64,000 bases of DNA from an uncultured virus (IMG/VR IMGVR_UViG_3300037488_001694) (Duplodnaviria; Heunggongvirae; Uroviricota; Caudoviricetes). A program made the position numbers and the translations under genes. The DNA is taken from IMG/VR virus record IMGVR_UViG_3300037488_001694, one strand, 5' to 3'. This document shows positions 3-64,000 of this stretch, piece after piece. The stretch's first letter is position 1. Every line of letters begins with the position of its first letter. The notes under the pieces were generated by a model, which ran no database searches, was not told the origin of the DNA, and saw only the letters and a program-made list of their open reading frames with translations.

Positions 3-146
3 ATTAATAATCTTAAAAAAGAGGAGTCGGATTTAATTAACAGAACATATATGGTTGGATATATGGATAAAGAAAGTAACCGACGAATGAAAGGTAACTA
101 TTACAAGGAAACTTATGAACCATTTGTATTTTTAAGATCAGAATGA
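3..146 (+). CDS. hypothetical protein, 5'-truncated at window edge
   Basis: Open frame from the window edge to TGA at 144-146, overlapping the next ATG (ATGA). Confidence 0.6.
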   Translation: MNNLKKEESDLINRTYMVGYMDKESNRRMKGNYYKETYEPFVFLRSE

Positions 147-55774: not shown

Positions 55775-57519
55775 TGGAAAAAAGAATAGTAAATGTTGCG
55801 TCCTATAATAGGATTGATTCGTTGGTGAGGTCTTTGGAATCAATATATGATCAATGTGATGAAATTAATGTATGTTTAAATAATCACAATGGTGAGATAC
55901 CTGATATTTTATATAGAGATAAAGTAAACTTATTCTTTACCGATAACTCAAAAGGGGATGCATTTAAATTCCTTATGCTTGAAGAAAGTAATGGGTATTT
56001 TTTAACAATAGATGATGACTTAATATACCCTGAAGGTTATGTTGACTATATGGTGAATAAATGTATTGAGCATGGTAATAAAAAAATCATAACACTACAC
56101 GGTAGAAGTTTTTCATCATTTCCAATAAATAGTTACTATAAATCGGCAAGTGAGAGATATGCTTGTTTAGAAAATGTTAAAAATGACGTAATCGTCCAAT
56201 TTGGGGGTACAGGAGTAATGTGTTTTCACACAAGTTTATTAAAAGTTTCAATTGATGATTTTTTATATCCAAATATGGCGGACATATGGATAGGTAAATT
56301 CGCAAAGCAAAGAAACATACCTATTTTATGTTTACAACATTCAAAAGGATATATTGGGTATATACATCAAAATACAACTATATTTAATGAACATTCAACA
56401 AATGATAGGGTTCAGACATTTGTGGTTAATAGATTATATGGTATTAATATTAAATACGATGTTTCCATTATTATCCCAACATTCCAAAATGTTAATTATA
56501 TTGATGATTGCTTAAAATCCATTGAGGTAGCAATGAAGAATCATATGTGTGAAATTTTAGTTGGTATAGACGGATGTAGAGAAACTTTAAACCATTTGAA
56601 GTCATCTAAAGTAAATCCATATACTTCTGTTTATTATTTTGAAATAAATGAAGGTCCGTATACAATAAAGAACACATTGGCCAATATTGCAAAATCAGAT
56701 AATTTAATCTTTTTTGATTCAGATGACTTAATGGGTGAAAATATGGTAGATTATGTAATGAAGTCATTAGATCGTTATGTTTGCGTAAAACCTAAAATGT
56801 ATAATTTTGATAATGAAACAAATAAACCAATATTAAATTTAAACACTCATGGTGAGGGTGTTTTCGCAATTAAAAAAGATTTATTCATCACAATGAATGG
56901 ATTTGAACCATGGATGTGTGCCGCGGATTCTGATTTTATGGGTAGGTTATATAAAAGAAAACCGGCAATTATAGGGTCCCCATCCCCACTATTCTCAAGA
57001 CGAATACATGACAATAGTTTGACAACCAGGAAAGAGACAGGTATGAGATCAGTAATGAGACACCAATATGCAAAAATATCAAAAAATAAAAAAGGACACG
57101 GTAATCCGAATATATTACACACAAGAGATTTTACACTAATTGACAATATTTCATTTTTTAGTGATTTTGATAATTTCCTACAAAGTGAAATGATGTTAAA
57201 GAAAAATAACGCTCAACTTTCAGTGTTGTCTATCTTATCTAAAGCACCAAGAAAAGTAGTTGAGAAAACGTTACCAAAAGAAAAAACTTCTATTGAGGTT
57301 GGTTATGATGCAATTAGTCATTTACTTAATAAACCACACCCTATGATCCCAAAACCTAAAGTTAATAATCAACCACCACCACAAAACAACCCTCAAGCAA
57401 TACCTCAACCACAGAAATCAAATTCAAATAGAGATACTTTACAAAAGTTATTTTTAAGAAAAACTCATAATAAAAGTGATGCTCCTTACATGAATATTGG
57501 GGGAAAATTAGGTAGATAG
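55774..57519 (+). CDS. two-domain glycosyltransferase
   Basis: N-domain LTIDDDLIYP/GGTG; C-domain VSIIIPT, GIDG, FFDSDD. Confidence 0.9.
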   Translation: MEKRIVNVASYNRIDSLVRSLESIYDQCDEINVCLNNHNGEIPDILYRDKVNLFFTDNSKGDAFKFLMLEESNGYFLTIDDDLIYPEGYVDYMVNKCIEHGNKKIITLHGRSFSSFPINSYYKSASERYACLENVKNDVIVQFGGTGVMCFHTSLLKVSIDDFLYPNMADIWIGKFAKQRNIPILCLQHSKGYIGYIHQNTTIFNEHSTNDRVQTFVVNRLYGINIKYDVSIIIPTFQNVNYIDDCLKSIEVAMKNHMCEILVGIDGCRETLNHLKSSKVNPYTSVYYFEINEGPYTIKNTLANIAKSDNLIFFDSDDLMGENMVDYVMKSLDRYVCVKPKMYNFDNETNKPILNLNTHGEGVFAIKKDLFITMNGFEPWMCAADSDFMGRLYKRKPAIIGSPSPLFSRRIHDNSLTTRKETGMRSVMRHQYAKISKNKKGHGNPNILHTRDFTLIDNISFFSDFDNFLQSEMMLKKNNAQLSVLSILSKAPRKVVEKTLPKEKTSIEVGYDAISHLLNKPHPMIPKPKVNNQPPPQNNPQAIPQPQKSNSNRDTLQKLFLRKTHNKSDAPYMNIGGKLGR

Positions 57520-57556
57520 ATTTGACTTAACGATTAATTATTTTTATAATTGAATT

Positions 57557-57733
57557 ATGTATGTAATAGTTAAACACGTAAAGACGAACAATAACAGAAT
57601 TTTACCTGTTATTATGTTAGACACCCAAGGTGAGCTATGGGAGTTTGATAATAAAGATAAAGCACAGGAAATGGCTAACATCTTCAACACTAATACCGAT
57701 TCGGGACATAAATACGAAGTTAAGAAGGTATAA
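57557..57733 (+). CDS. small hypothetical protein (58 aa), not in ORF track
   Basis: MYVIVKHVK...LPVIMLDTQGELWEF...YEVKKV; TTGACT-N18-TATAAT upstream. Confidence 0.75.
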   Translation: MYVIVKHVKTNNNRILPVIMLDTQGELWEFDNKDKAQEMANIFNTNTDSGHKYEVKKV

Positions 57734-57740
57734 ATAATAT

Positions 57741-57814
57741 GGTCCGCTAGCTCAGCTGGATAGAGCAACTGCCTTCTAAGCAGTAGGTCTCAGGTTCGAA
57801 TCCTGAGCGGATCA
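57741..57814 (+). tRNA. tRNA-Arg(TCT)
   Basis: Canonical cloverleaf; anticodon loop CT-TCT-AA. Confidence 0.95.
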
Positions 57815-57944
57815 CTAATAATAATGTTATGGATATTTTTGAAGAATTACATAACGAATTCATTAATTCTGAAGATTATGTCTGTTATTTAGTTGAGATT
57901 AATGAATACCGTTACGATTTATAATAACATGATATTTATTATAT

Positions 57945-58412
57945 ATGGAACTTAATGAAGAGATATATAGAATAAAATCATTACTAAAAGAAAATTCTGA
58001 CCCTTATAAAATTAGGGTTGTAAGTAATATAGAGAGTGATAGAGGATTTTGCGTATATTATTTAACAGAAAATAATGATGTTATAGGTGTTGTGACTTTA
58101 ACCGATCTAAATAAAGTTTTATCTAATAATGAGTTTAATGAAGACATAAAAGTTTTACATGAAAATTACGATAACTCAAAAGATACAGTTTATATACACT
58201 CAATTGTTGTTGAATCTCCGTTTAGAAAACAAGGATTTGGTACAAAATTAATAAAGGAATGTGAAACTATTGCAAGAAATTCTGGTTATAAGTACATAAC
58301 TGCAATTGTTAAAAAAAACAATATACCATCTCAAACCATGCTTGATAAATTAGGTTATAACAAATATAATTCTAACGATAAGAAAGATTTATTTATTTTA
58401 GACATTGACTAA
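57945..58412 (+). CDS. tagged GNAT acetyltransferase
   Basis: MELNEEIYRIKSLLKE tag; V...FRKQGFGTKL, N..S....KLGY. Confidence 0.88.
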   Translation: MELNEEIYRIKSLLKENSDPYKIRVVSNIESDRGFCVYYLTENNDVIGVVTLTDLNKVLSNNEFNEDIKVLHENYDNSKDTVYIHSIVVESPFRKQGFGTKLIKECETIARNSGYKYITAIVKKNNIPSQTMLDKLGYNKYNSNDKKDLFILDID

Positions 58413-58464
58413 ATGGTCTTTTTTAATTATTAATTACACAGAAATAAACAAATAATCACAAAAA

Positions 58465-59094
58465 ATGGAATTATTAAAATCGTTAGAGTGGAGATACGCC
58501 ACCAAGAAGATGAATGGGGATAAAGTCCCACAAGATAAATTAGAAAGAATTTTGGAAGCAACAAGATTGGCTCCAAGTTCTTATGGGTTAACACCATATC
58601 ACGTAATTGTTGTTGAGGATCAAAAATTAAAAGAAGAATTACAAGGGGCGTGTTACGGACAAACTCAATTAAGTGAATCATCAGCAGTATTGGTATTTGC
58701 TACATGGGATAATATTACAGATGAGTCAGTAGATATTTACATCCAGGAGACGGCAAACCAAAGAGGGATCAGTACTGATATGTTAGGTGAGTTCAGTGGT
58801 ATGATCAAAGGATCTTTATCTAATATGACGCAAGATCAAAAAATTGCTTGGGCACAGAGACAAGCATACATCGGATTAGGATTTGCATTAGTTGCAGCAG
58901 CAACAGAAGAAGTGGATTCAACTCCAATGGAAGGATTTGTTCCATCATCAGTGGATACAGTATTAGGATTAGAAGAATTAGGATTAAAATCAGTTGTAGT
59001 TCTTCCATTAGGATATAGAGACACTGAAAATGATTATTTAGCGTCTTTAAAGAAAGTAAGATGGGAAAATGAGAAATTTTTCATTAAAAAATAA
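58465..59094 (+). CDS. nitroreductase (NfsB-like NAD(P)H-flavin oxidoreductase)
   Basis: WRYATKK, APSSYGL.P, DSTPMEGF, LGYR, KVR. Confidence 0.93.
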   Translation: MELLKSLEWRYATKKMNGDKVPQDKLERILEATRLAPSSYGLTPYHVIVVEDQKLKEELQGACYGQTQLSESSAVLVFATWDNITDESVDIYIQETANQRGISTDMLGEFSGMIKGSLSNMTQDQKIAWAQRQAYIGLGFALVAAATEEVDSTPMEGFVPSSVDTVLGLEELGLKSVVVLPLGYRDTENDYLASLKKVRWENEKFFIKK

Positions 59095-59124
59095 AAAAAC
59101 ACTTGTCAATTAAAAATAAATTCC

Positions 59125-59172
59125 TAAATTTGTACAAGAATTAAAACTTTTAGGAAAACTGATATATTTATA
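59125..59172 (+). promoter_or_regulatory. tandem promoters for tRNA array 1 leader
   Basis: TAAATTTG (59125-59132) and TATTTATA (59165-59172). Confidence 0.6.
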
Positions 59173-59183
59173 ACAAAACAAAA

Positions 59184-59294
59184 ATGAAAGCAACTAATAA
59201 ACATATGGTCATTTGTAATCCGAGCACACAGTGGTCGTTTAATAGCTATAGAACGCTTCGTTCACATATTAGGGCATTTTCATTTATGAGTTGA
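59184..59294 (+). CDS. putative attenuator leader peptide 1 (36 aa)
   Basis: MKATNKHMVICNPSTQWSFNSYRTLRSHIRAFSFMS; A-rich initiation context; ends 31 nt before a terminator. Confidence 0.75.
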   Translation: MKATNKHMVICNPSTQWSFNSYRTLRSHIRAFSFMS

Positions 59295-59325
59295 TACAGA
59301 TTAACTAAAAATATAAAAGGAATAT

Positions 59326-59359
59326 AAGACCCGAACTCAAATCAAGTTCGGGTTTTTTT
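59326..59359 (+). terminator. intrinsic terminator (attenuator 1)
   Basis: acccgaact/agttcgggt stem plus T-run, immediately before the first tRNA. Confidence 0.9.
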
Positions 59360-59373
59360 ATACCCAAAAAATC

Positions 59374-59445
59374 GGTCTCTTAGTATAGTTGGTAATATCC
59401 CGGCTTTGTAACCCGGAGTCATCAGTTCGAACCTGATAGAGACCT
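59374..59445 (+). tRNA. tRNA with TGT anticodon (Thr), C31.C39 mismatch
   Basis: ggtctct/agagacc acceptor; loop TT-TGT-AA; T-loop TTCGAAC. Confidence 0.8.
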
Positions 59446-59456
59446 CAAAAGAAAAA

Positions 59457-59469
59457 GTTCTTTGACATA
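59457..59469 (+). promoter_or_regulatory. rrn boxA-like antitermination site
   Basis: GTTCTTTGACATA; identical copy at 63288-63300. Confidence 0.75.
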
Positions 59470-59481
59470 TTGGCCTTAAAT

Positions 59482-59552
59482 TGTCTCGTAGCCTAAAGGC
59501 AGGGCATCGGATTTTGGCTCCGAGTGTGTTGGTTCGAGTCCAGCCGAGACAA
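59482..59552 (+). tRNA. tRNA-Gln(TTG)
   Basis: U1-A72 acceptor; loop TT-TTG-GC. Confidence 0.92.
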
Positions 59553-59559
59553 CAATAAT

Positions 59560-59643
59560 GGAAGAGTAATCACAACGGCTTGTGATCCCGTCTTGAAAAC
59601 GGCGAGTACTGAAAGGTATGGGGATCGACACCTCACTCTTCCG
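59560..59643 (+). tRNA. tRNA-Ser(TGA)
   Basis: Long variable arm; loop CT-TGA-AA; G73. Confidence 0.88.
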
Positions 59644-59652
59644 CATTAATAA

Positions 59653-59727
59653 CGGGATGTGGACTAATTGGTAAGTCACCACTTTTGGGAAGTGGGCATC
59701 ATCCAGGTTCGAGTCCTGGTATCCCGA
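59653..59727 (+). tRNA. tRNA-Pro(TGG)
   Basis: C1-G72; loop TT-TGG-GA. Confidence 0.95.
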
Positions 59728-59732
59728 CTAAC

Positions 59733-59808
59733 GTCTTCGTAGCTCAGTTGGTTTCAGAGCACTCCGCTTTTAACGGAGGGGTCACAGGTTCGAACCCTGT
59801 CGGGGACA
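59733..59808 (+). tRNA. tRNA-Lys(TTT)
   Basis: Loop CT-TTT-AA. Confidence 0.93.
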
Positions 59809-59814
59809 CAATAA

Positions 59815-59888
59815 GCACTCTTAGCTCAGATGGTAGTAGCGGTTGTTTTACATACAACAGGTCACAGGTTCGATCCCTGTAGAGTGTA
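59815..59888 (+). tRNA. tRNA-Val(TAC)
   Basis: Loop TT-TAC-AT. Confidence 0.93.
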
Positions 59889-59893
59889 CAAAA

Positions 59894-59963
59894 GGGAGTA
59901 TCGGCAGGGTCCTGATCGTGTCTGTAAAACATCGTCTTGGTGGTTCGATTCCATCTGCTCCCA
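59894..59963 (+). tRNA. non-canonical tRNA with GTA anticodon (Tyr-like)
   Basis: gggagta/tgctccc acceptor, T-arm, loop CT-GTA-AA; aberrant D-arm, no long V-arm. Confidence 0.7.
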
Positions 59964-59972
59964 CAACAAAAT

Positions 59973-60044
59973 GGACTGGTAGCTCAGAGGTAGAGCAGGG
60001 AGCTGTTAACTCCAAGGTCATAGGTTCGATCCCTATCCTGTCCG
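59973..60044 (+). tRNA. tRNA-Asn(GTT)
   Basis: Loop CT-GTT-AA; G73. Confidence 0.92.
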
Positions 60045-60049
60045 CAACC

Positions 60050-60123
60050 GCTCATATAGCTCAATTGGTGAGAGCGCCGACCTGATACGTCGGAGGTTAT
60101 AGGTTCGAGTCCTGTTATGAGCA
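60050..60123 (+). tRNA. tRNA-Ile(GAT)
   Basis: Loop CT-GAT-AC. Confidence 0.94.
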
Positions 60124-60127
60124 CAAT

Positions 60128-60216
60128 GGAAAGTAATCCCTGAAGGCGACGGGACTTGTTTGCTAAACAATGTGATCGGTGAGAAACCGATTGTGGATCG
60201 TTACCACTGCTTTCCT
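60128..60216 (+). tRNA. tRNA-Ser(GCT)
   Basis: Long variable arm; loop TT-GCT-AA; atypical T-loop. Confidence 0.85.
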
Positions 60217-60222
60217 CAACAA

Positions 60223-60290
60223 CCCGTATGATCAGGGATCAAAGTTGGCTCATATCCGACTTTAGAGTGGTTCGATACCACTATACGGGA
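60223..60290 (+). tRNA. short non-canonical tRNA with CAT anticodon (Met or Ile2)
   Basis: 68 nt; cccgtat/atacggg acceptor; loop CT-CAT-AT; minimal D-arm. Confidence 0.72.
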
Positions 60291-60297
60291 CTTATAT

Positions 60298-60371
60298 GGT
60301 GTATGTAGCTCAGTTGGCAGAGTGCTTGATTGTGATTCAAGAGGTCATGGGTTCGACCCCCATCATACACA
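60298..60371 (+). tRNA. tRNA-His(GTG)
   Basis: Encoded G-1; loop TT-GTG-AT. Confidence 0.92.
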
Positions 60372-60372
60372 C

Positions 60373-60501
60373 AAATAGTTTACAACGGACAAGGCTTAGG
60401 CAAGTGAGTTGAGAATGAGTCGTAGGAGATATAATCGTTTGTACTACAAAAAGTTTGATACAAGAGATTGGTGGGATGCGAGTGGTTGACCAAAACTATT
60501 T
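60373..60501 (+). ncRNA. candidate structured ncRNA A
   Basis: 9-bp closing stem aaatagttt/aaactattt filling the His-Arg spacer. Confidence 0.5.
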
Positions 60502-60503
60502 AT

Positions 60504-60576
60504 GTCCTCGTAGTTCAATGGAAGAGAACCTGTGGCTACGGACCACAAGATGGGAGTTCGAATCTCTCCGAGGATA
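60504..60576 (+). tRNA. tRNA-Arg(ACG)
   Basis: Loop CT-ACG-GA. Confidence 0.94.
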
Positions 60577-60577
60577 C

Positions 60578-60732
60578 AAAAGATGATACAAGGCGTAGAA
60601 TGACAGACGTGGAGAGACGTGTCGCAAGGGTACACACTAAGGATAAGTAATAATGCTCAACTCTCTTATGGTGTGTGAAGCGTCGTAGAAATACGAATCC
60701 CAGATTCCTGATAAAGTCATTTATCATCTTTT
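60578..60732 (+). ncRNA. candidate structured ncRNA B
   Basis: 11-bp closing stem aaaagatgata/tatcatctttt; inner aatgac/gtcatt and acacac/gtgtgt. Confidence 0.65.
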
Positions 60733-60736
60733 ATTT

Positions 60737-60808
60737 GCCCCTTTCGTATAACGGAAGTACAACGCTCTTCTAAGGCGTCAGGTCGGAGTTCGAATCTCTG
60801 AGGGGGTA
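60737..60808 (+). tRNA. tRNA-Arg(TCT), second divergent copy
   Basis: Loop CT-TCT-AA. Confidence 0.9.
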
Positions 60809-60871
60809 CTAAACTAAAAAATGCTCAATAAACAAGGTTAGTTTATCGTAGCAAAAATAGGTTTATTATAC

Positions 60872-60942
60872 GCGTCTCTGGTGTAACGGTAGCATGATGG
60901 ATTCCAAACCCATCGGTCAGGGTTCGAAACCTTGGGGGCGCG
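60872..60942 (+). tRNA. tRNA-Trp(CCA)
   Basis: Loop TT-CCA-AA; G73; A31.C39 mismatch. Confidence 0.92.
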
Positions 60943-60987
60943 CAAATTAAATTTGGTAGATTGAAAATAAATTTGTATCTTTGTCTT

Positions 60988-61491
60988 ATGAAAACAAATT
61001 TACCATACTGTTCAAATAACGTTGGAATCATTGGTTATCAGGATTCCGAAATTGCGAAAAAAGAAAAAAACGATTGTGTTGTGAGAGCATTTGCGTCGTC
61101 ATTTGAAATCCCTTATGATAAGGCGCACAAATACGTTAAAGAAAAATTTGGGAGAAAGGATTATTGTGGTACTTATGGTACCGTTTTTAAAATGGTTGAG
61201 TTGGCAAAAAAACAAACTCAAATAAACCATAAGAAGATTAAACCAATTGGGACTTCCAAAACGATAAGTAATCACAAAGTTTATACGTTAGATTATACGG
61301 TTAAAGTAAAAGGTAAAAAGGTTAATAGACAAATGACCGTTGGGACATTTATAAAAGAAAACCCAATTGGAACATTTTTTGTGTTAGTTTGTGGTCACGC
61401 TTTTACCATTAAAGATGGGATCGTACATGGTAATTATGAAGATTCAACCAAAAAGAGAAAAATTATGAAACACGCATTTCAAATTAAATAA
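60988..61491 (+). CDS. hypothetical phage protein (NDCVVRA...H motif)
   Basis: Start reassigned to MKTNL, after TATCTTTG (60976-60983). Confidence 0.85.
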   Translation: MKTNLPYCSNNVGIIGYQDSEIAKKEKNDCVVRAFASSFEIPYDKAHKYVKEKFGRKDYCGTYGTVFKMVELAKKQTQINHKKIKPIGTSKTISNHKVYTLDYTVKVKGKKVNRQMTVGTFIKENPIGTFFVLVCGHAFTIKDGIVHGNYEDSTKKRKIMKHAFQIK

Positions 61492-61564
61492 GGACTGGTA
61501 GCTCAGTTGGTAGAGCGTTGGATTGAAGATCCAAGCGTCGGGGGTTCGACTCCCTCCCGGTCCA
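61492..61564 (+). tRNA. tRNA-Phe(GAA)
   Basis: Loop TT-GAA-GA. Confidence 0.95.
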
Positions 61565-61579
61565 CAAAAACCAAATAAT

Positions 61580-62032
61580 ATGAACAGAGTATTTAGAACG
61601 GTACAAGGCGAATCGGTAGATGTGGTATCTCACACCTTGGATGTTTTAAACGAATGTCCATATGTTGAGGTTCATATTGGAACGGATTCACAGAACCACA
61701 GAAGAAGTACGGTATACGTTACCGTAATTGCTTACCGATATGGTAACAGAGGTGTTCATTACATCTTACATAAACAAAAAATAAAAAAAATTAAGGATAA
61801 GTGGACGAGATTATGGAATGAAGCTGACTATTCTATTGAGGTTGCGGAATGGTTAACCAAAAAGGTGAAGGTTCAAGTTGAAATTGACTTGGATTACAAT
61901 AGTCAGGAAAAACACTTCAGTTCAAAACTTGTTCCTCCTGTTGTTGGGTGGGCAACGTCTCTTGGTTACAAGACAAACATTAAACCTGACAATCAAATAG
62001 CAACTAAAGCGGCAGATCATCACTGCCGTTAA
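61580..62032 (+). CDS. RNase H-like YkuK (DUF458) family protein
   Basis: IGTDSQ...RLWNEA..S...IDLDYN...KP...A...AD; start reassigned to MNRVF. Confidence 0.85.
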   Translation: MNRVFRTVQGESVDVVSHTLDVLNECPYVEVHIGTDSQNHRRSTVYVTVIAYRYGNRGVHYILHKQKIKKIKDKWTRLWNEADYSIEVAEWLTKKVKVQVEIDLDYNSQEKHFSSKLVPPVVGWATSLGYKTNIKPDNQIATKAADHHCR

Positions 62033-62033
62033 T

Positions 62034-62105
62034 GGTCCTATGGCCGAGAGATTTAGGCGCCGGTCTGCAAAACCGGTCAGATTGGTTTGATTCCAATTAG
62101 GACCT
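62034..62105 (+). tRNA. tRNA-Cys(GCA)
   Basis: Loop CT-GCA-AA; U73. Confidence 0.92.
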
Positions 62106-62114
62106 CAACAAAAT

Positions 62115-62188
62115 GCCCTCATGGCGGAATAGGTATACGCGTGTGATTTAGGATCACAATTTTACAGGTTCGAGTCCTGTTGGGGGTA
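62115..62188 (+). tRNA. tRNA-Leu(TAG) lacking long variable arm
   Basis: Loop TT-TAG-GA; 5-nt variable loop. Confidence 0.9.
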
Positions 62189-62203
62189 CAAATAAAGGTA
62201 AAT

Positions 62204-62542
62204 ATGTTAAGAGAATTTAAATTCTATAAAGACGAGGGGACGTGGTATGTGGATCTGCCCGAATGGGAAGGAAGTCGGGCAGATCTGGCAATGGTATCAG
62301 GTGCCGATATAATGTTAGATATTGTATCTCAGGGTGAAAACGATATTAAAGTTTTATTGTCAACAGAAGATTTTGATGGATCCAATAGATTAGAATTTTT
62401 AAGAGAAGCCCCTGAAGTTGGTGAAGGATCTTGGTATTTAATGAAAACATATAAGGGTATTGAATATAATTTGGAACTATGGTTATGTGATGTAACTATA
62501 TTTGTATTTGGGGGATTTCCTAAAAATATTTACATATCATAA
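62204..62542 (+). CDS. hypothetical protein (DUF6717-like)
   Basis: WYVDLP...MVSGAD..LD...WLC.V..FVFG.FP..IY. Confidence 0.8.
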   Translation: MLREFKFYKDEGTWYVDLPEWEGSRADLAMVSGADIMLDIVSQGENDIKVLLSTEDFDGSNRLEFLREAPEVGEGSWYLMKTYKGIEYNLELWLCDVTIFVFGGFPKNIYIS

Positions 62543-62555
62543 CATATTTATTGAT

Positions 62556-63011
62556 ATGAAAAAAATAGTTAGATTAACAGAATCAGATTTAATTCGTTTA
62601 GTTAAACGAGTTGTTAAAGAAAATGAGGATGGATCCAAACCAGACATTTTAACTTACCTCAACGATAACTTCACACCAGACGGTGGATGGGATAATGAAA
62701 AATTCCAAGATGGTTGGATGAATGGTGAACTTACCGCTTATTATGTAAATGGTAAATTAGCATTTATTTATAACACTGAATTTGATGACGATGGTGGAGA
62801 GAGGGAATTTAATACATTAGTTGTTGGTCCTGAGGTATATGAAAAAATTAAGGAAATGTTTGGTAAAGGAGAATGGAAAGAAAGATTTACTAATTGGTTT
62901 AAAGGAAATACTCGTTTAAACGTTGATGATGTTGAAATGGACGACTTTAAAGGTATCTTTTCTGACTATGTAGATCCTTCTTGGGCTGATGACGAAAATT
63001 GGGATTATTAA
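62556..63011 (+). CDS. tagged acidic protein
   Basis: Start reassigned to MKKIVRLTESDLIRLVKRVVKE. Confidence 0.88.
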   Translation: MKKIVRLTESDLIRLVKRVVKENEDGSKPDILTYLNDNFTPDGGWDNEKFQDGWMNGELTAYYVNGKLAFIYNTEFDDDGGEREFNTLVVGPEVYEKIKEMFGKGEWKERFTNWFKGNTRLNVDDVEMDDFKGIFSDYVDPSWADDENWDY

Positions 63012-63080
63012 AAATAAAATAAAAAACTTGACACTTTCAAAAAGTATCATATATTTATAACAAAACATTAAAAAACGCAA

Positions 63081-63149
63081 ATGAAAAATTTACACATATT
63101 ATTGATAGGCGCGGATTTAGCTGAGACAACCTTCAAGGAGATGGTGTAA
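63081..63149 (+). CDS. putative attenuator leader peptide 2 (22 aa)
   Basis: MKNLHILLIGADLAETTFKEMV; preceded by TATTTATA (63052-63059); its 3' end is complementary to the terminator arm. Confidence 0.75.
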   Translation: MKNLHILLIGADLAETTFKEMV

Positions 63150-63170
63150 ATTTTTGTATATATGAAATTT

Positions 63171-63201
63171 AAAACCCATCTCCAAAAGAGGTGGGTTTTT
63201 T
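63171..63201 (+). terminator. intrinsic terminator (attenuator 2)
   Basis: aaaacccatctc/gaggtgggtttt stem plus T-run. Confidence 0.9.
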
Positions 63202-63262
63202 GATTTTATAAGTTTTTTTAAAAATATTTTACAAAGTGTTTGTCGGATTGAAAAATTCTACT

Positions 63263-63270
63263 TATCTTTG
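63263..63270 (+). promoter_or_regulatory. Bacteroidota -7 element TATCTTTG before tRNA array 2
   Basis: Matches TAnnTTTG; TTTG about 20 nt upstream. Confidence 0.65.
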
Positions 63271-63287
63271 TGGAACAAAAGAAAAAG

Positions 63288-63300
63288 GTTCTTTGACATA
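63288..63300 (+). promoter_or_regulatory. rrn boxA-like antitermination site
   Basis: GTTCTTTGACATA, 12 nt before the first tRNA. Confidence 0.75.
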
Positions 63301-63312
63301 ATGGTAAAAAAT

Positions 63313-63392
63313 GGTTCGGTGGTGAAATTGGTATACACGCTGCGTTTAAGCCGCAGTCCATACGGTTGTGGGTTCGAGTCCCACCCGGACTA
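63313..63392 (+). tRNA. tRNA-Leu(TAA)
   Basis: Loop TT-TAA-GC; variable arm present. Confidence 0.93.
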
Positions 63393-63401
63393 CAAATATA
63401 T

Positions 63402-63474
63402 AGCGGGATGTGGAAGATGGTTATCCGCTGGGTCTCATAAGCCTAGATCGCAGGTTCGAATCCTGCTCCCGCAA
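63402..63474 (+). tRNA. tRNA-Met(CAT), initiator-like
   Basis: A1.A72 mismatch; loop CT-CAT-AA. Confidence 0.88.
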
Positions 63475-63505
63475 CTAAAGAGTAAAACTTTTTATTCTTA
63501 AAAAT

Positions 63506-63644
63506 TTGATAGTGGTTTTCCCCACTCAACGGATGTCGACAATCCAGAGTGGAATCGGAATTCAGCACCCTTTCTGCCGAGGCCTCGTAAAACTACGATT
63601 AAGCAGTTAAGATTGGAGCGAGACGGGTACTCCATCACTATCAA
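63506..63644 (+). ncRNA. candidate structured ncRNA C
   Basis: Closing stem ttgatagtg/cactatcaa; inner ccactc/gagtgg and tggag/ctcca. Confidence 0.6.
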
Positions 63645-63653
63645 CAAAATTAT

Positions 63654-63734
63654 GCTGACGTACCAGTGGATGCTTATATCATCTATGCCTGTAGTGGTAA
63701 GTTTAAAACGTTGGTTCGAATCCAACCGTCAGTA
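63654..63734 (+). tRNA. tRNA-like RNA with TAT anticodon loop and rearranged body
   Basis: gctgacg/cgtcagt acceptor, perfect T-arm, ggatg-CTTATAT-catct arm, no D-arm. Confidence 0.6.
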
Positions 63735-63740
63735 CAATAA

Positions 63741-63813
63741 GCGGGAGTAGCTCAGTTGGTAGAGCTATAGCCTTCCAAGCTATAGGTCGCGAGTTCGAAT
63801 CTCGTCTCCCGCT
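63741..63813 (+). tRNA. tRNA-Gly(TCC)
   Basis: Loop CT-TCC-AA; U73. Confidence 0.96.
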
Positions 63814-63815
63814 CT

Positions 63816-63936
63816 AAACAATTAGTCGTACAAGGGCAACGCGAATACAGATAAGGGATACTACTCCACCTAATGGAAGCGGCCGATACATCCATAGGTC
63901 TACGAAGCCGATCGTAGTTGAGCCTACTAATTGTTT
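63816..63936 (+). ncRNA. candidate structured ncRNA D
   Basis: 11-bp closing stem aaacaattagt/actaattgttt; inner ctacga/tcgtag. Confidence 0.6.
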
Positions 63937-63941
63937 TTTAT

Positions 63942-64000
63942 GGGCCTGATGCCAACGGCAGGTCGACTGATTTGCAATCAGATCGTTTGGGTTCGATTCC
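63942..64000 (+). tRNA. tRNA-Ala(TGC), truncated by window end
   Basis: G3; loop TT-TGC-AA; T-loop TTCGATT. Confidence 0.85.

What the first reader, a model, noticed from the sequence alone, without database searches (positions are those of the whole stretch)
63081..63201. Attenuator 2: clear mutually exclusive antiterminator and terminator
Seen: GGAGATGG (63137-63144, the last codons of the leader) is the exact complement of CCATCTCC (63176-63183) in the 5' arm of the terminator. TAAATTT (63147-63153) also pairs with AAATTTA (63165-63171), extending the same hairpin. Inference: a ribosome reaching the stop codon masks the antiterminator strand and the terminator forms; stalling at the earlier TTA/ATA/Gly/Ala/Asp codons leaves it free and allows read-through. 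Caveat: a separate TATCTTTG promoter (63263-63270) lies downstream of the terminator, so the attenuator may govern only one (late) transcript.
Basis: partly seen in the sequence, partly recalled or inferred. Interest (0 to 1): 0.85.

Follow-up and report, generated by a model that had tools for sequence, protein, structure and literature searches.

The report
Leader-peptide attenuator before phage tRNA genes
A large uncultured freshwater phage places a tiny translated gene and a two-state stop/go RNA switch in front of a block of its own tRNA genes, so it probably makes more of these tRNAs when ribosomes read the matching codons slowly.

Summary
GGAGATGG (63137-63144) and TAAATTT (63147-63153) complement CCATCTCC (63176-63183) and AAATTTA (63165-63171). 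That hairpin (-16.9 kcal/mol) excludes an equally stable intrinsic terminator (-17.0).

The unit is promoter, 22-codon ORF, terminator, a boxA-like motif and then tRNA genes. It recurs in related viral and metagenome contigs:
- 84 distinct versions were found.
- The ORF stays open at 22-25 codons.
- In 82 of the 82 versions that have a terminator, the nascent RNA pairs the last codons with the terminator's 5' arm.
- The key pair switches U-A (34) to G-C (38); 8 versions are mismatched.

A 1:2 stem joining the ORF start to its stop region is predicted in 36 of 36. A leader of different sequence in another lineage has the same wiring.

Leader codons match the tRNAs downstream: 6-7 of 7 here, 14-16 of 16 for the other array in the window, and 9 of 9 in the third lineage.

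I read it as a trp-type, ribosome-mediated attenuator that gates tRNA transcription. No experiment exists, and a possible second promoter follows the terminator in this window. Five literature searches found no published case. Earlier notes of this scan describe the same kind of element on other DNA.

The parts
63028..63066 (+). Promoter: TTG at 63028, 19 nt, then TATATTTA, within the 17-mer TATATTTATAACAAAAC at 63050-63066
   Evidence: The exact 17-mer occurs only twice in the window, once before each tRNA array (59163 and 63050). With up to 3 mismatches there are 13 matches against 2.5 expected. The core TATATTTATAA lies 4-20 nt before the ATG of several + strand genes. TTGACA-N16-TATATT is also picked up by the sigma-70 scan. 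Promoter function is inferred.
63081..63149 (+). Leader ORF, 22 codons plus TAA: MKNLHILLIGADLAETTFKEMV
   Evidence: The ORF is open in 30 of 30 distinct nucleotide versions, while the other two frames carry 1-4 stops. It is 22-25 codons long in 84 distinct versions.
63085..63096 (+). Segment 1 (codons 2-6), which pairs with 63144-63155 as a predicted anti-antiterminator or pause stem
   Evidence: A 12-bp stem appears in the MFE fold of the whole leader. An equivalent stem joining the ORF start to the stop region appears in 36 of 36 nascent-RNA folds, with different sequences in the 22- and 24-codon classes.
63137..63155 (+). Segment 2: the G-rich core GGAGATGG (last three sense codons), the stop codon, and the 5' arm of the inner A/U hairpin
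63165..63183 (+). Segment 3: the 3' arm of the inner hairpin plus CCATCTCC; it is shared by the antiterminator and the terminator
63171..63201 (+). Intrinsic terminator: a 12-bp stem, a 5-nt loop and a T-run
   Evidence: The stem is 91.9% paired over 36 sequences.
63239..63270 (+). Possible second promoter, TTTG-N20-TATCTTTG, downstream of the terminator
   Evidence: Seen in the sequence. A TAnnTTTG box lies between terminator and tRNA-Leu in 11 of 36 relatives and is absent in the 11 of 36 where the tRNA follows within 25-31 nt. The consensus is recalled as that of Bacteroidota; promoter function was not tested.
63288..63304 (+). Conserved motif GTTCTTTGACATAATGG (boxA-like) between the terminator and the first tRNA
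Evidence: There are two exact copies of the 16-mer in the window, at 59458 and 63289. The motif follows the terminator in 35 of 36 relatives.
63313..64000 (+). Start of tRNA array 2: Leu(taa) 63313-63393, CAT-anticodon tRNA 63402-63475, Gly(tcc) 63741-63814, and a partial tRNA from 63943 with anticodon TGC (Ala) read by eye
   Evidence: Homologous arrays continue with Ile(tat), Ala(tgc), Glu(ttc) and Asp(gtc).

Best explanation
This is a ribosome-mediated (trp-type) transcription attenuator that gates read-through from a phage promoter into tRNA array 2. Transcription starts just after the TATATTTATAAC box, and the 22-codon leader is translated while RNA polymerase moves on.

Three outcomes are possible:
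- No ribosome. Segment 1 (codons 2-6) pairs with segment 2 (last codons plus stop region), so segments 3 and 4 form the terminator.
- Ribosome runs to the stop codon. It covers segment 2, and again the terminator forms.
- Ribosome is slowed in codons 4-15 (TTA CAC ATA TTA TTG ATA GGC GCG GAT TTA GCT GAG). Segment 1 is covered and segment 2 is free, so 2:3 (GGAGAUGG with CCAUCUCC, plus the inner A/U hairpin) forms first. The terminator cannot form, and polymerase runs on through the boxA-like motif into tRNA-Leu(UAA), the CAU tRNA, Gly(UCC), Ala(UGC) and beyond.

The sensing codons are mostly those read by these same tRNAs. The circuit would therefore be a negative feedback on the supply of the tRNAs that the array encodes.

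Shown: the sequence elements, their mutual exclusivity, their conservation and covariation, and the codon/tRNA match. Inferred: translation of the ORF, promoter use, the ribosome footprints and timing, and the direction of regulation.
For: 1. Two equally stable, mutually exclusive hairpins, each better than 200 of 200 shuffles. The whole leader folds with z -5.33.

2. Conservation. The pattern scans gave 49 viral loci and 120 metagenome loci, of which 54 were unrelated or too short. After pooling there were 84 distinct family sequences, with 3 more too short to use. The ORF is always open at 22, 23, 24 or 25 codons. A terminator is present in 82 of 84. In 82 of 82 the nascent-RNA MFE pairs at least 5 nt of the last codons with the terminator's 5' arm; energies run from -7.3 to -18.9 (mean -14.5), against a terminator mean of -14.9.

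3. Covariation on the 36-sequence alignment A1. The G/C helix is 93.1% paired, and pair 72-114 is U-A 18, G-C 12, G-U 2, other 4. The covariation score is 0.187 against 0.145 in shuffles (0 of 500 reach it), and all slid registers score lower. In the larger set the pair is G-C 38, U-A 34. The change turns a Met codon into an Arg codon, so here the RNA pairing is what is kept, not the peptide. Two further double changes lie in the terminator loop, outside the terminator stem: A-U to G-C in the L126 group, and G-C to A-U in L127 with L130 as a G-U intermediate. In the duplex swap test, own partners average -13.76 and partners of the other terminator class -10.74; 0 of 10000 permutations do as well.

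4. A 1:2 stem is predicted in 36 of 36.

5. Independent replicate. Behind the same promoter type in another lineage (L293-L296) sits an unrelated 28-codon leader, MKTMNFHIEFSSQQEICWKTPMRSSVNM. Its codons 22-26 pair 12 bp with its own terminator's 5' arm (-20.9).

6. Codon/tRNA match.
- Leader 2 covers 6 of 7 (strict wobble) or 7 of 7 (extended U34) array-2 tRNA types, but only 6 of 16 array-1 tRNAs.
- Leader 1 (59184-59294) covers 14-16 of 16 array-1 tRNAs, but only 2 of 7 array-2 types.
- Simulated P values: 0.0026 / 0.00008 for leader 1 and 0.09 / 0.02 for leader 2.
- The third leader covers 9 of 9, P 0.0005-0.0015.
- Leu codons in leader 2 are all TTA/TTG, read by Leu-UAA of array 2. The one Leu codon in leader 1 is CTT, which falls to Leu-UAG of array 1. 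Ile is ATA in leader 2 and ATT in leader 1.
- Over 30 distinct leaders, 265-323 of 394 codons in the zone from codon 4 to n-7 are array-2 cognate. Only 22 of 120 are in the four codons just before the pairing strand, and general usage is 31-36%.

7. In 11 of 36 relatives tRNA-Leu begins 25-31 nt after the T-run, so read-through is the only visible route into it.
Against: - No experimental or transcript-end evidence. The RNA runs are held only as contigs and say nothing about this site.
- In this window a possible host-type promoter (63239-63270) lies between the terminator and the tRNAs. The attenuator may therefore control only part of array-2 transcription.
- The covariation rests on few independent events, perhaps 3-5, and the shuffle controls ignore relatedness.
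- Exceptions exist. Eight of 80 sequences have a mismatch at the key pair, 2 more have other terminator types, the L132 group has a U-U mismatch, and L305 folds at only -7.3. L161 and L376 have the leader but no terminator.
- The codon match is imperfect. GGC is not read by Gly-UCC under strict wobble, and 8-10 of the 21 leader-2 codons belong to tRNAs of the other array or to none.
- The 7-member array-2 set is a union of the window and its homologs, because the window ends at 64000.
- Leader 2 alone is only weakly significant (P 0.09 strict).
- The zones used were chosen after seeing the data.
- The host is unknown. Bacteroidota is only hinted at, and transcription-translation coupling there is not established.
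- Array 1's leader shows no clear antiterminator.
Confidence: 0.75

Rival explanations
1. The ORF is an ordinary small-protein gene with its own promoter and terminator. The tRNAs are transcribed from the promoter downstream, and the 2:3 pairing is a by-product or serves mRNA stability.
For: The peptide is fairly well conserved within each class. A TTTG-N20-TATCTTTG box follows the terminator in the window and in 11 of 36 relatives. The same promoter core drives normal protein genes.
Against: The last codons change amino acid (Met to Arg, Glu to Lys or Arg) in step with the terminator's 5' arm and loop. Residue order is rearranged between leader classes while the set L, I, G, A, D, E, M is kept. 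Eleven of 36 relatives have no room for a second promoter. An unrelated peptide in another lineage has the same wiring.
Confidence: 0.12
2. A real terminator/antiterminator switch, but set by something other than the ribosome: a phage or host RNA-binding protein, Nus factors at the boxA-like motif, temperature, or uncharged tRNA as in a T-box. On this reading the ORF stays open only because of the RNA structure.
For: The conserved motif GTTCTTTGACATAATGG directly follows the terminator. The 1:2 and 2:3 stems alone could make a kinetic switch.
Against: The frame is preserved through 3-nt indels and five length/stop classes, while the other frames carry stops. The stop codon always lies 2 nt after the G-rich strand. 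The codon content matches the downstream tRNAs. No T-box or other riboswitch family matches, even at E up to 1, and at about 120 nt the leader is too short for a T-box.
Confidence: 0.08
3. A chance complementarity next to the ordinary terminator of the upstream gene 62556-63011.
For: AT-rich DNA readily gives short A/T pairings. The inner hairpin is only 59.9% paired in the alignment as given.
Against: None of 200 shuffles folds as well. A promoter motif lies between the upstream gene and the ORF. The pairing is kept in 82 of 82 relatives and covaries.
Confidence: 0.02

Closest known systems
Leader-peptide transcription attenuators of amino-acid operons (trpL, hisL, leuL, thrL, pheL of enterobacteria)
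   Same: A promoter-proximal short ORF; 1:2, 2:3 and 3:4 alternative hairpins; a stop codon placed so that a finishing ribosome masks segment 2; an intrinsic terminator before the regulated genes; and sensing codons upstream of segment 2.
   Different: The regulated genes are tRNAs of a phage, not biosynthetic enzymes. There is no run of one regulatory codon; instead there are single or few codons for several amino acids. There is no sequence similarity: no Rfam leader family matches. What is sensed would be decoding speed or tRNA supply rather than amino-acid supply alone.
Multivalent attenuators (ilvGMEDA and ilvBN leaders, thr leader), as I recall them
   Same: One leader senses several amino acids at once. 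The leader is rich in Leu and Ile.
   Different: Here there are up to 7 codon families (16 in leader 1), each matched to a tRNA gene downstream. Two or more such leaders in one genome divide the codon families between arrays.
T-box riboswitches
   Same: A terminator/antiterminator decision tied to tRNA status.
   Different: A T-box binds uncharged tRNA directly, needs about 200 nt or more of structured leader with a specifier loop, and uses no ORF. No match to the family.
rRNA-operon boxA antitermination (Nus factors), recalled
   Same: A short conserved motif, GTTCTTTGACATAATGG, lies at the head of an untranslated stable-RNA operon.
   Different: Its identity as boxA is not shown here. The motif occurs at background frequency in 5 Bacteroidota genomes, and no hit lies beside an rRNA gene. 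One Chryseobacterium 16S leader has a similar GATCATTGAAAAA.

Membership tests
Ribosome-mediated leader-peptide transcription attenuators (mechanistic class) | Short ORF between the promoter and the regulated genes | tested here: met
   A 22-codon ORF at 63081-63149 starts 15 nt after the promoter 17-mer. It is open in 84 of 84 distinct relatives.
Ribosome-mediated leader-peptide transcription attenuators (mechanistic class) | Intrinsic terminator between the ORF and the regulated genes | tested here: met
   Located at 63171-63201. The stem is 91.9% paired in 36 sequences, and a terminator is present in 82 of 84.
Ribosome-mediated leader-peptide transcription attenuators (mechanistic class) | Antiterminator that uses the terminator's 5' arm and lies within reach of a ribosome at the stop codon | tested here: met
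   The G-rich strand consists of the last three sense codons.
Ribosome-mediated leader-peptide transcription attenuators (mechanistic class) | Upstream 1:2 hairpin overlapping the ORF | tested here: met
   Predicted in the window and in 36 of 36 relatives. This rests on prediction only.
Ribosome-mediated leader-peptide transcription attenuators (mechanistic class) | Leader enriched in codons tied to the product of the regulated genes | tested here: inconclusive
   Coverage is 6-7 of 7 with P 0.09-0.02 for this leader. Support is stronger from leader 1 (P 0.0026-0.00008), the third leader (P about 0.001) and the cross-coverage comparison. The zones were chosen after seeing the data.
Ribosome-mediated leader-peptide transcription attenuators (mechanistic class) | Read-through depends on ribosome stalling in the leader | not testable with these tools
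   This needs in vivo or coupled in vitro assays. The RNA contigs were uninformative.
Rfam leader families (Trp_leader, His_leader, Leu_leader, Thr_leader and others) | Match to the covariance model | tested here: not met
   No such match at gathering thresholds or at E up to 1 over 62900-64000. The only hit was a chance-level L10_leader match at 21.3 bits against a cut-off of 44.
T-box riboswitch | Match to the family model, with specifier loop and T-box | tested here: not met
   No match at E up to 1. The leader is about 120 nt long.
boxA (Nus-dependent antitermination site) | The same motif in the leader of the host's rRNA operons | tested here: inconclusive
   The host is unknown. In 5 Bacteroidota genomes the pattern occurs at background frequency and no hit lies next to an rRNA gene. 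Only one 16S leader could be read, and it has a similar but not identical motif.

The most novel reading that the evidence does not exclude
Each tRNA array of these giant phages carries its own 'codon sampler' leader, a mini-gene written in the codons served by the tRNAs behind it. On this reading the phage measures, array by array, how fast ribosomes decode those codons, and it transcribes an array only when decoding is slow. Slow decoding could arise early in infection, in a host with poor supply of AT-rich codons, or after a host anticodon nuclease has cut the matching tRNAs. That would be a tRNA homeostat and a possible counter-defence sensor. It would also be the first translation-sensing control of tRNA genes.
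Probability: 0.45. Interest if true: 0.9.

Novelty: new variant of a known kind. Interest (0 to 1): 0.8.

Why it matters
How phages time and dose their own tRNA genes is largely unknown. Leader-peptide attenuation is a textbook mechanism, but it is known for amino-acid and a few other operons, not for tRNA genes. In five full-text searches I found no paper describing it for tRNA genes or phage tRNA arrays.

If it is real, the element gives a simple and testable circuit in which the product (tRNA) feeds back through decoding speed on its own transcription. It would explain why tRNA genes in these phages are split into arrays with separate leaders. It would also offer compact natural sensors of codon-specific translation speed for synthetic biology.

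The family is widespread in freshwater metagenomes. DNA runs from 7 studies, labelled lake, sediment, estuary, wastewater or unspecified metagenome, each hold half or more of the sampled words. There are 84 distinct versions, so comparative and metatranscriptomic tests are feasible.

Tried and rejected
- Whole genome: none is held for this window.
- Cultured relatives: blastn of 61000-64000 against phage records hit only tRNA genes. tblastn of a 712-aa protein found nothing.
- Neighbouring-protein search gave only two N-terminal paralog matches.
- The exact 47-nt switch sequence is absent from viral contigs.
- Expression: the RNA runs hold only 5-10% of the words and are kept as contigs. Laid on 58400-64000 they cover mainly tRNA-like parts at 90-95% likeness and give no ends or strand, so nothing can be concluded for the attenuator.
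- boxA test: the motif occurs at background frequency in 5 Bacteroidota genomes and no hit lies next to an rRNA gene. Only 1 of the 5 genomes yielded a 16S gene.
- Host: the nitroreductase gene's best genomic relatives are only 50-56% identical and of mixed phyla, with Sphingobacteriales and Chitinophagaceae on top. This is a hint only.
- Leader 1 antiterminator: the MFE folds of 9 variants show a stem joining ORF start and end, plus the terminator, but no consistent 2:3 pairing.
- Link between an Arg codon in the leader and an Arg tRNA in the array: not resolvable with 4-kb flanks.
- A pyrBI-type reading, in which the ribosome directly blocks the terminator, is rejected. The stop codon lies 22 nt before the terminator stem.

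Full report
**Context**

The window is AT-rich DNA (about 30% G+C). Nearly all ORFs are on one strand and few proteins have known families. It carries 20 tRNA genes in its last 6 kb. No whole genome is held and no cultured phage is close. Related IMG/VR contigs reach 304 kb, so this is a giant uncultured phage. DNA runs labelled lake, sediment, estuary, wastewater and unspecified metagenome hold it.

The host is unknown. Three things hint at Bacteroidota: genes lack Shine-Dalgarno sequences and have A-rich leaders; TTTG...TAnnTTTG boxes occur (a consensus I recall); and the best relatives of a nitroreductase gene are Sphingobacteriales and Chitinophagaceae, at only 50-56% identity.

**The observation**

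The ORF 63081-63149 encodes MKNLHILLIGADLAETTFKEMV. GGAGATGG (63137-63144) and TAAATTT (63147-63153) are exact complements of CCATCTCC (63176-63183) and AAATTTA (63165-63171). Segment 63130-63186 folds into that hairpin at -16.9 kcal/mol (z -4.49, 0 of 200 shuffles as good). The terminator at 63171-63199 plus its T-run folds at -17.0 and is the only + strand terminator-like site in 56000-64000. The two structures share 63171-63183.

The full leader shows one more element. AAAAAUUUACAC (63085-63096, codons 2-6) pairs 12 bp with GUGUAAAUUUUU (63144-63155). The MFE of the complete RNA is therefore 1:2 plus 3:4 (-38.8, z -5.33). This is the full trp-style set of alternatives.

**Surroundings**

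The 17-mer TATATTTATAACAAAAC occurs exactly twice in the window, at 59163 and 63050, once before each tRNA array. Its core, TATATTTATAA, precedes the ATG of several ordinary genes by 4-20 nt, often directly after the previous gene's terminator. I read it as a promoter.

Array 1 (59374-62189, 16 tRNAs) has its own 36-codon ORF (59184-59294) and its own terminator (59328-59353 plus T's). After the terminator of array 2 come three things:
- a possible second promoter, TTTG-N20-TATCTTTG (63239-63270);
- the motif GTTCTTTGACATAATGG (63288-63304), whose 16-mer has a second exact copy at 59458 after the first tRNA of array 1;
- tRNA-Leu(taa).

**Relatives**

Scanning viral contigs for the start of the leader gave 49 loci, 36 of them distinct. 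One, L161, keeps the leader but has lost the terminator, so I left it out of alignment A1. A1 therefore holds the window plus 35 loci.

Pooled with the viral and promoter-anchored loci, there are 84 distinct family sequences, with 3 more too short to use. The N-terminal MKNLHI is fixed by my search pattern, so its invariance means nothing. A promoter-anchored scan without that requirement found the same leader again, plus a new one described below.

**The ORF**

- In 30 of 30 distinct nucleotide versions the frame is open, while the other two frames hold 2-4 and 1-2 stops.
- Across 84 versions the lengths are 22 (TAA, 47), 24 (TGA, 30), 25 (3), 23 (2) and 24 (TAA, 2) codons. Indels are therefore always whole codons.
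- Residue order differs between classes (GGDLAE, GLAIAED, GADLEAGD), but the set L, I, G, A, D, E, M is kept.

**The switch**

- On A1 the G/C helix of the antiterminator is 93.1% paired. Pair 72-114 is U-A 18, G-C 12, G-U 2, other 4.
- The covariation score is 0.187 against 0.145 in shuffles (0 of 500), and every slid register is lower.
- The inner A/U helix is only 59.9% paired in this alignment. Single-sequence folds nevertheless show an inner hairpin in every case, so the low figure may come from the alignment of the A/T-rich spacer, which I did not test.
- The terminator is 91.9% paired and covaries at the same position.
- In 36 of 36 and then 82 of 82 sequences, the nascent RNA cut before the terminator's 3' arm folds with the last codons paired to the 5' arm.
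- In the larger set the key pair is G-C 38, U-A 34, mismatched 8, other 2.
- The U-A to G-C change turns ATG (Met) into AGG (Arg). The peptide is sacrificed to the pairing.
- Two further double changes lie in what is the terminator's loop, so they speak for 2:3 alone: A-U to G-C in the L126 group, and G-C to A-U in L127, with L130 (G-U) as intermediate and L129 (A.C) as a miss.
- In the swap test, own partners average -13.76, same class -13.99 and other class -10.74 kcal/mol; 0 of 10000 permutations do as well.
- These controls ignore relatedness. I count only some 3-5 independent events.

**The 1:2 stem**

In 36 of 36 sequences the nascent RNA up to 15 nt past the stop codon pairs the ORF's first codons with its last codons and stop region. 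The sequences differ between classes: UUACAC with GUGUAA in the 22-codon class, and ACAUAUCAU(A) with (U)AUGGUAUGA or its variants in the 24-codon class.

**An independent replicate**

Four contigs of another lineage (L293-L296, identical in this region) carry the same promoter type followed by a different 28-codon leader, MKTMNFHIEFSSQQEICWKTPMRSSVNM. After it come a terminator, the GTTCTTTGAAATATTGG motif and tRNA-Glu. Codons 22-26 pair 12 bp with the 5' arm and loop of that terminator (-20.9 kcal/mol). The same wiring is built from different sequence.

**Codon logic**

Downstream arrays in the relatives hold Leu(taa), Met/CAT, Ile(tat), Gly(tcc), Ala(tgc), Glu(ttc) and Asp(gtc), and sometimes Arg(tct). 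The window itself shows Leu(taa), CAT, Gly(tcc) and a cut tRNA with anticodon TGC read by eye.

I simulated random leaders using the window's own codon usage (49 ORFs, 13086 codons).

| Leader | Own array covered | P | Other array covered |
|---|---|---|---|
| Leader 2 | 6 of 7 (strict) or 7 of 7 (extended U34) | 0.09 / 0.02 | 6 of 16 |
| Leader 1 | 14 or 16 of 16 | 0.0026 / 0.00008 | 2 of 7 |
| Third leader | 9 of 9 | 0.0005-0.0015 | not computed |

Sources. In leader 2, 11-13 of 21 codons are array-2 cognate (P 0.035 / 0.014). In the third leader, 16 of 27 codons are cognate.

The split reaches codon level. Leu is TTA/TTG in leader 2 and CTT in leader 1. Ile is ATA in leader 2 and ATT in leader 1. 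Each fits the Leu and Ile tRNAs of the matching array.

Position fits as well. In the window 9-11 of codons 4-15 are array-2 cognate, and 0 of codons 16-19. Over 30 leaders the figures are 265-323 of 394 against 22 of 120.

Several caveats apply:
- The zones were chosen after looking at the data.
- The 7-member tRNA set is a union of the window and its relatives.
- GGC, a rare Gly codon (2% of Gly codons in the window), is not read by Gly-UCC under strict wobble.
- The sequences are related to one another.

**Mechanism**

From the anatomy and from established knowledge of trp-type attenuation, I infer three cases. Without a ribosome, or with one that reaches the stop codon, the terminator forms. 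With a ribosome slowed in codons 4-15, segment 1 is covered and segment 2 is free, so the antiterminator forms and polymerase enters the array.

In 11 of 36 relatives tRNA-Leu starts 25-31 nt after the T-run, so read-through is the only visible way in. In 11 of 36, including the window, a TAnnTTTG box intervenes. In 14 of 36 the first tRNA that ARAGORN finds lies 215 nt or more after the T-run, which I read as inserted sequence.

The motif after the terminator may be a boxA-type antitermination site.

**Known families**

No Rfam family matches the leader, either at gathering scores or at E up to 1. It works like the amino-acid operon attenuators but is not a sequence member of them, and it is not a T-box.

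Five full-text searches (I saw listings and abstract starts only) returned no paper on attenuation of tRNA genes or phage tRNA arrays. Subscription journals are not covered.

Earlier notes of this scan describe leader-ORF attenuators before phage tRNA arrays in at least nine other windows. One of them shares short words with this region. One (e1-5929890) judged the codon-sampling idea unsupported in its own case. These are unchecked AI notes, and I treat them as leads only.

**Verdict**

The element is a real, conserved terminator/antiterminator switch coupled to a conserved short ORF. I put the probability that it is a ribosome-mediated attenuator of tRNA array 2 at about 0.75. The array-specific codon sampling is attractive and passes several tests, but it is less secure, at about 0.45-0.55.

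Noticed in passing
window 59163-59373: Array 1 has the same promoter 17-mer, followed by a 36-codon ORF (59184-59294, MKATNKHMVICNPSTQWSFNSYRTLRSHIRAFSFMS) and a terminator (59328-59353 plus T's) directly before tRNA-Thr. The ORF is kept in 9 distinct versions of 35-36 codons. It carries a codon for 14-16 of the 16 tRNAs of the array and has no Gly, Asp or Glu codon. No clear antiterminator was found.
   Followed up: partly
L293-L296 (for example L294, from 60 nt before to 330 nt after the leader ATG): A third leader type occurs in another phage lineage: MKTMNFHIEFSSQQEICWKTPMRSSVNM, with a 12-bp antiterminator (-20.9). It lies before the array Glu, Phe, Cys, Ile, Trp, Met, Gln, His, Ser, and all nine tRNAs are represented in the leader.
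   Followed up: partly
window 59457-59473 and 63288-63304: The motif GTTCTTTGACATAWTGG has two exact copies of its 16-mer in the window. One lies after the first tRNA of array 1 and one before the first tRNA of array 2. It follows the terminator in 35 of 36 relatives. It may be a boxA-like antitermination site or a processing site.
   Followed up: partly
window 63488-63652 and 63815-63940: Two structured spacers lie between tRNA genes, each closed by a long terminal stem (-40.7 and -29.2 kcal/mol). Neither matches an Rfam family. Contigs from an RNA library cover 63506-63646 at high depth. They may be stable RNAs of unknown function.
   Followed up: partly
window 63654-63737: A tRNA-like sequence with a good acceptor stem and T arm. 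ARAGORN calls it only at a lowered threshold, and then with an odd 4-nt anticodon. By eye the loop could present TAT. Relatives have tRNA-Ile(tat) at this place.
   Followed up: partly
window 20632, 24080 and 62556 (gene starts): A family of paralogous small proteins starting MKK(V/I)(I/V)RLTESDL. Each lies 12-13 nt after a TATATTTATAA box or at the matching position before array 2. No Pfam family matched the copy tested (62556-63011).
   Followed up: no
window 60961-62542: Protein genes are inserted between tRNAs of array 1: a 176-aa ORF with no family, an RNaseH_like PF04308 protein (61523-62032) and a DUF6717 protein (62180-62542).
   Followed up: no
L161 and L376: Two relatives keep the leader ORF but lack the terminator. 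In L161 it is deleted and the motif follows 21 nt after the stop codon. These may be natural constitutive variants.
   Followed up: no
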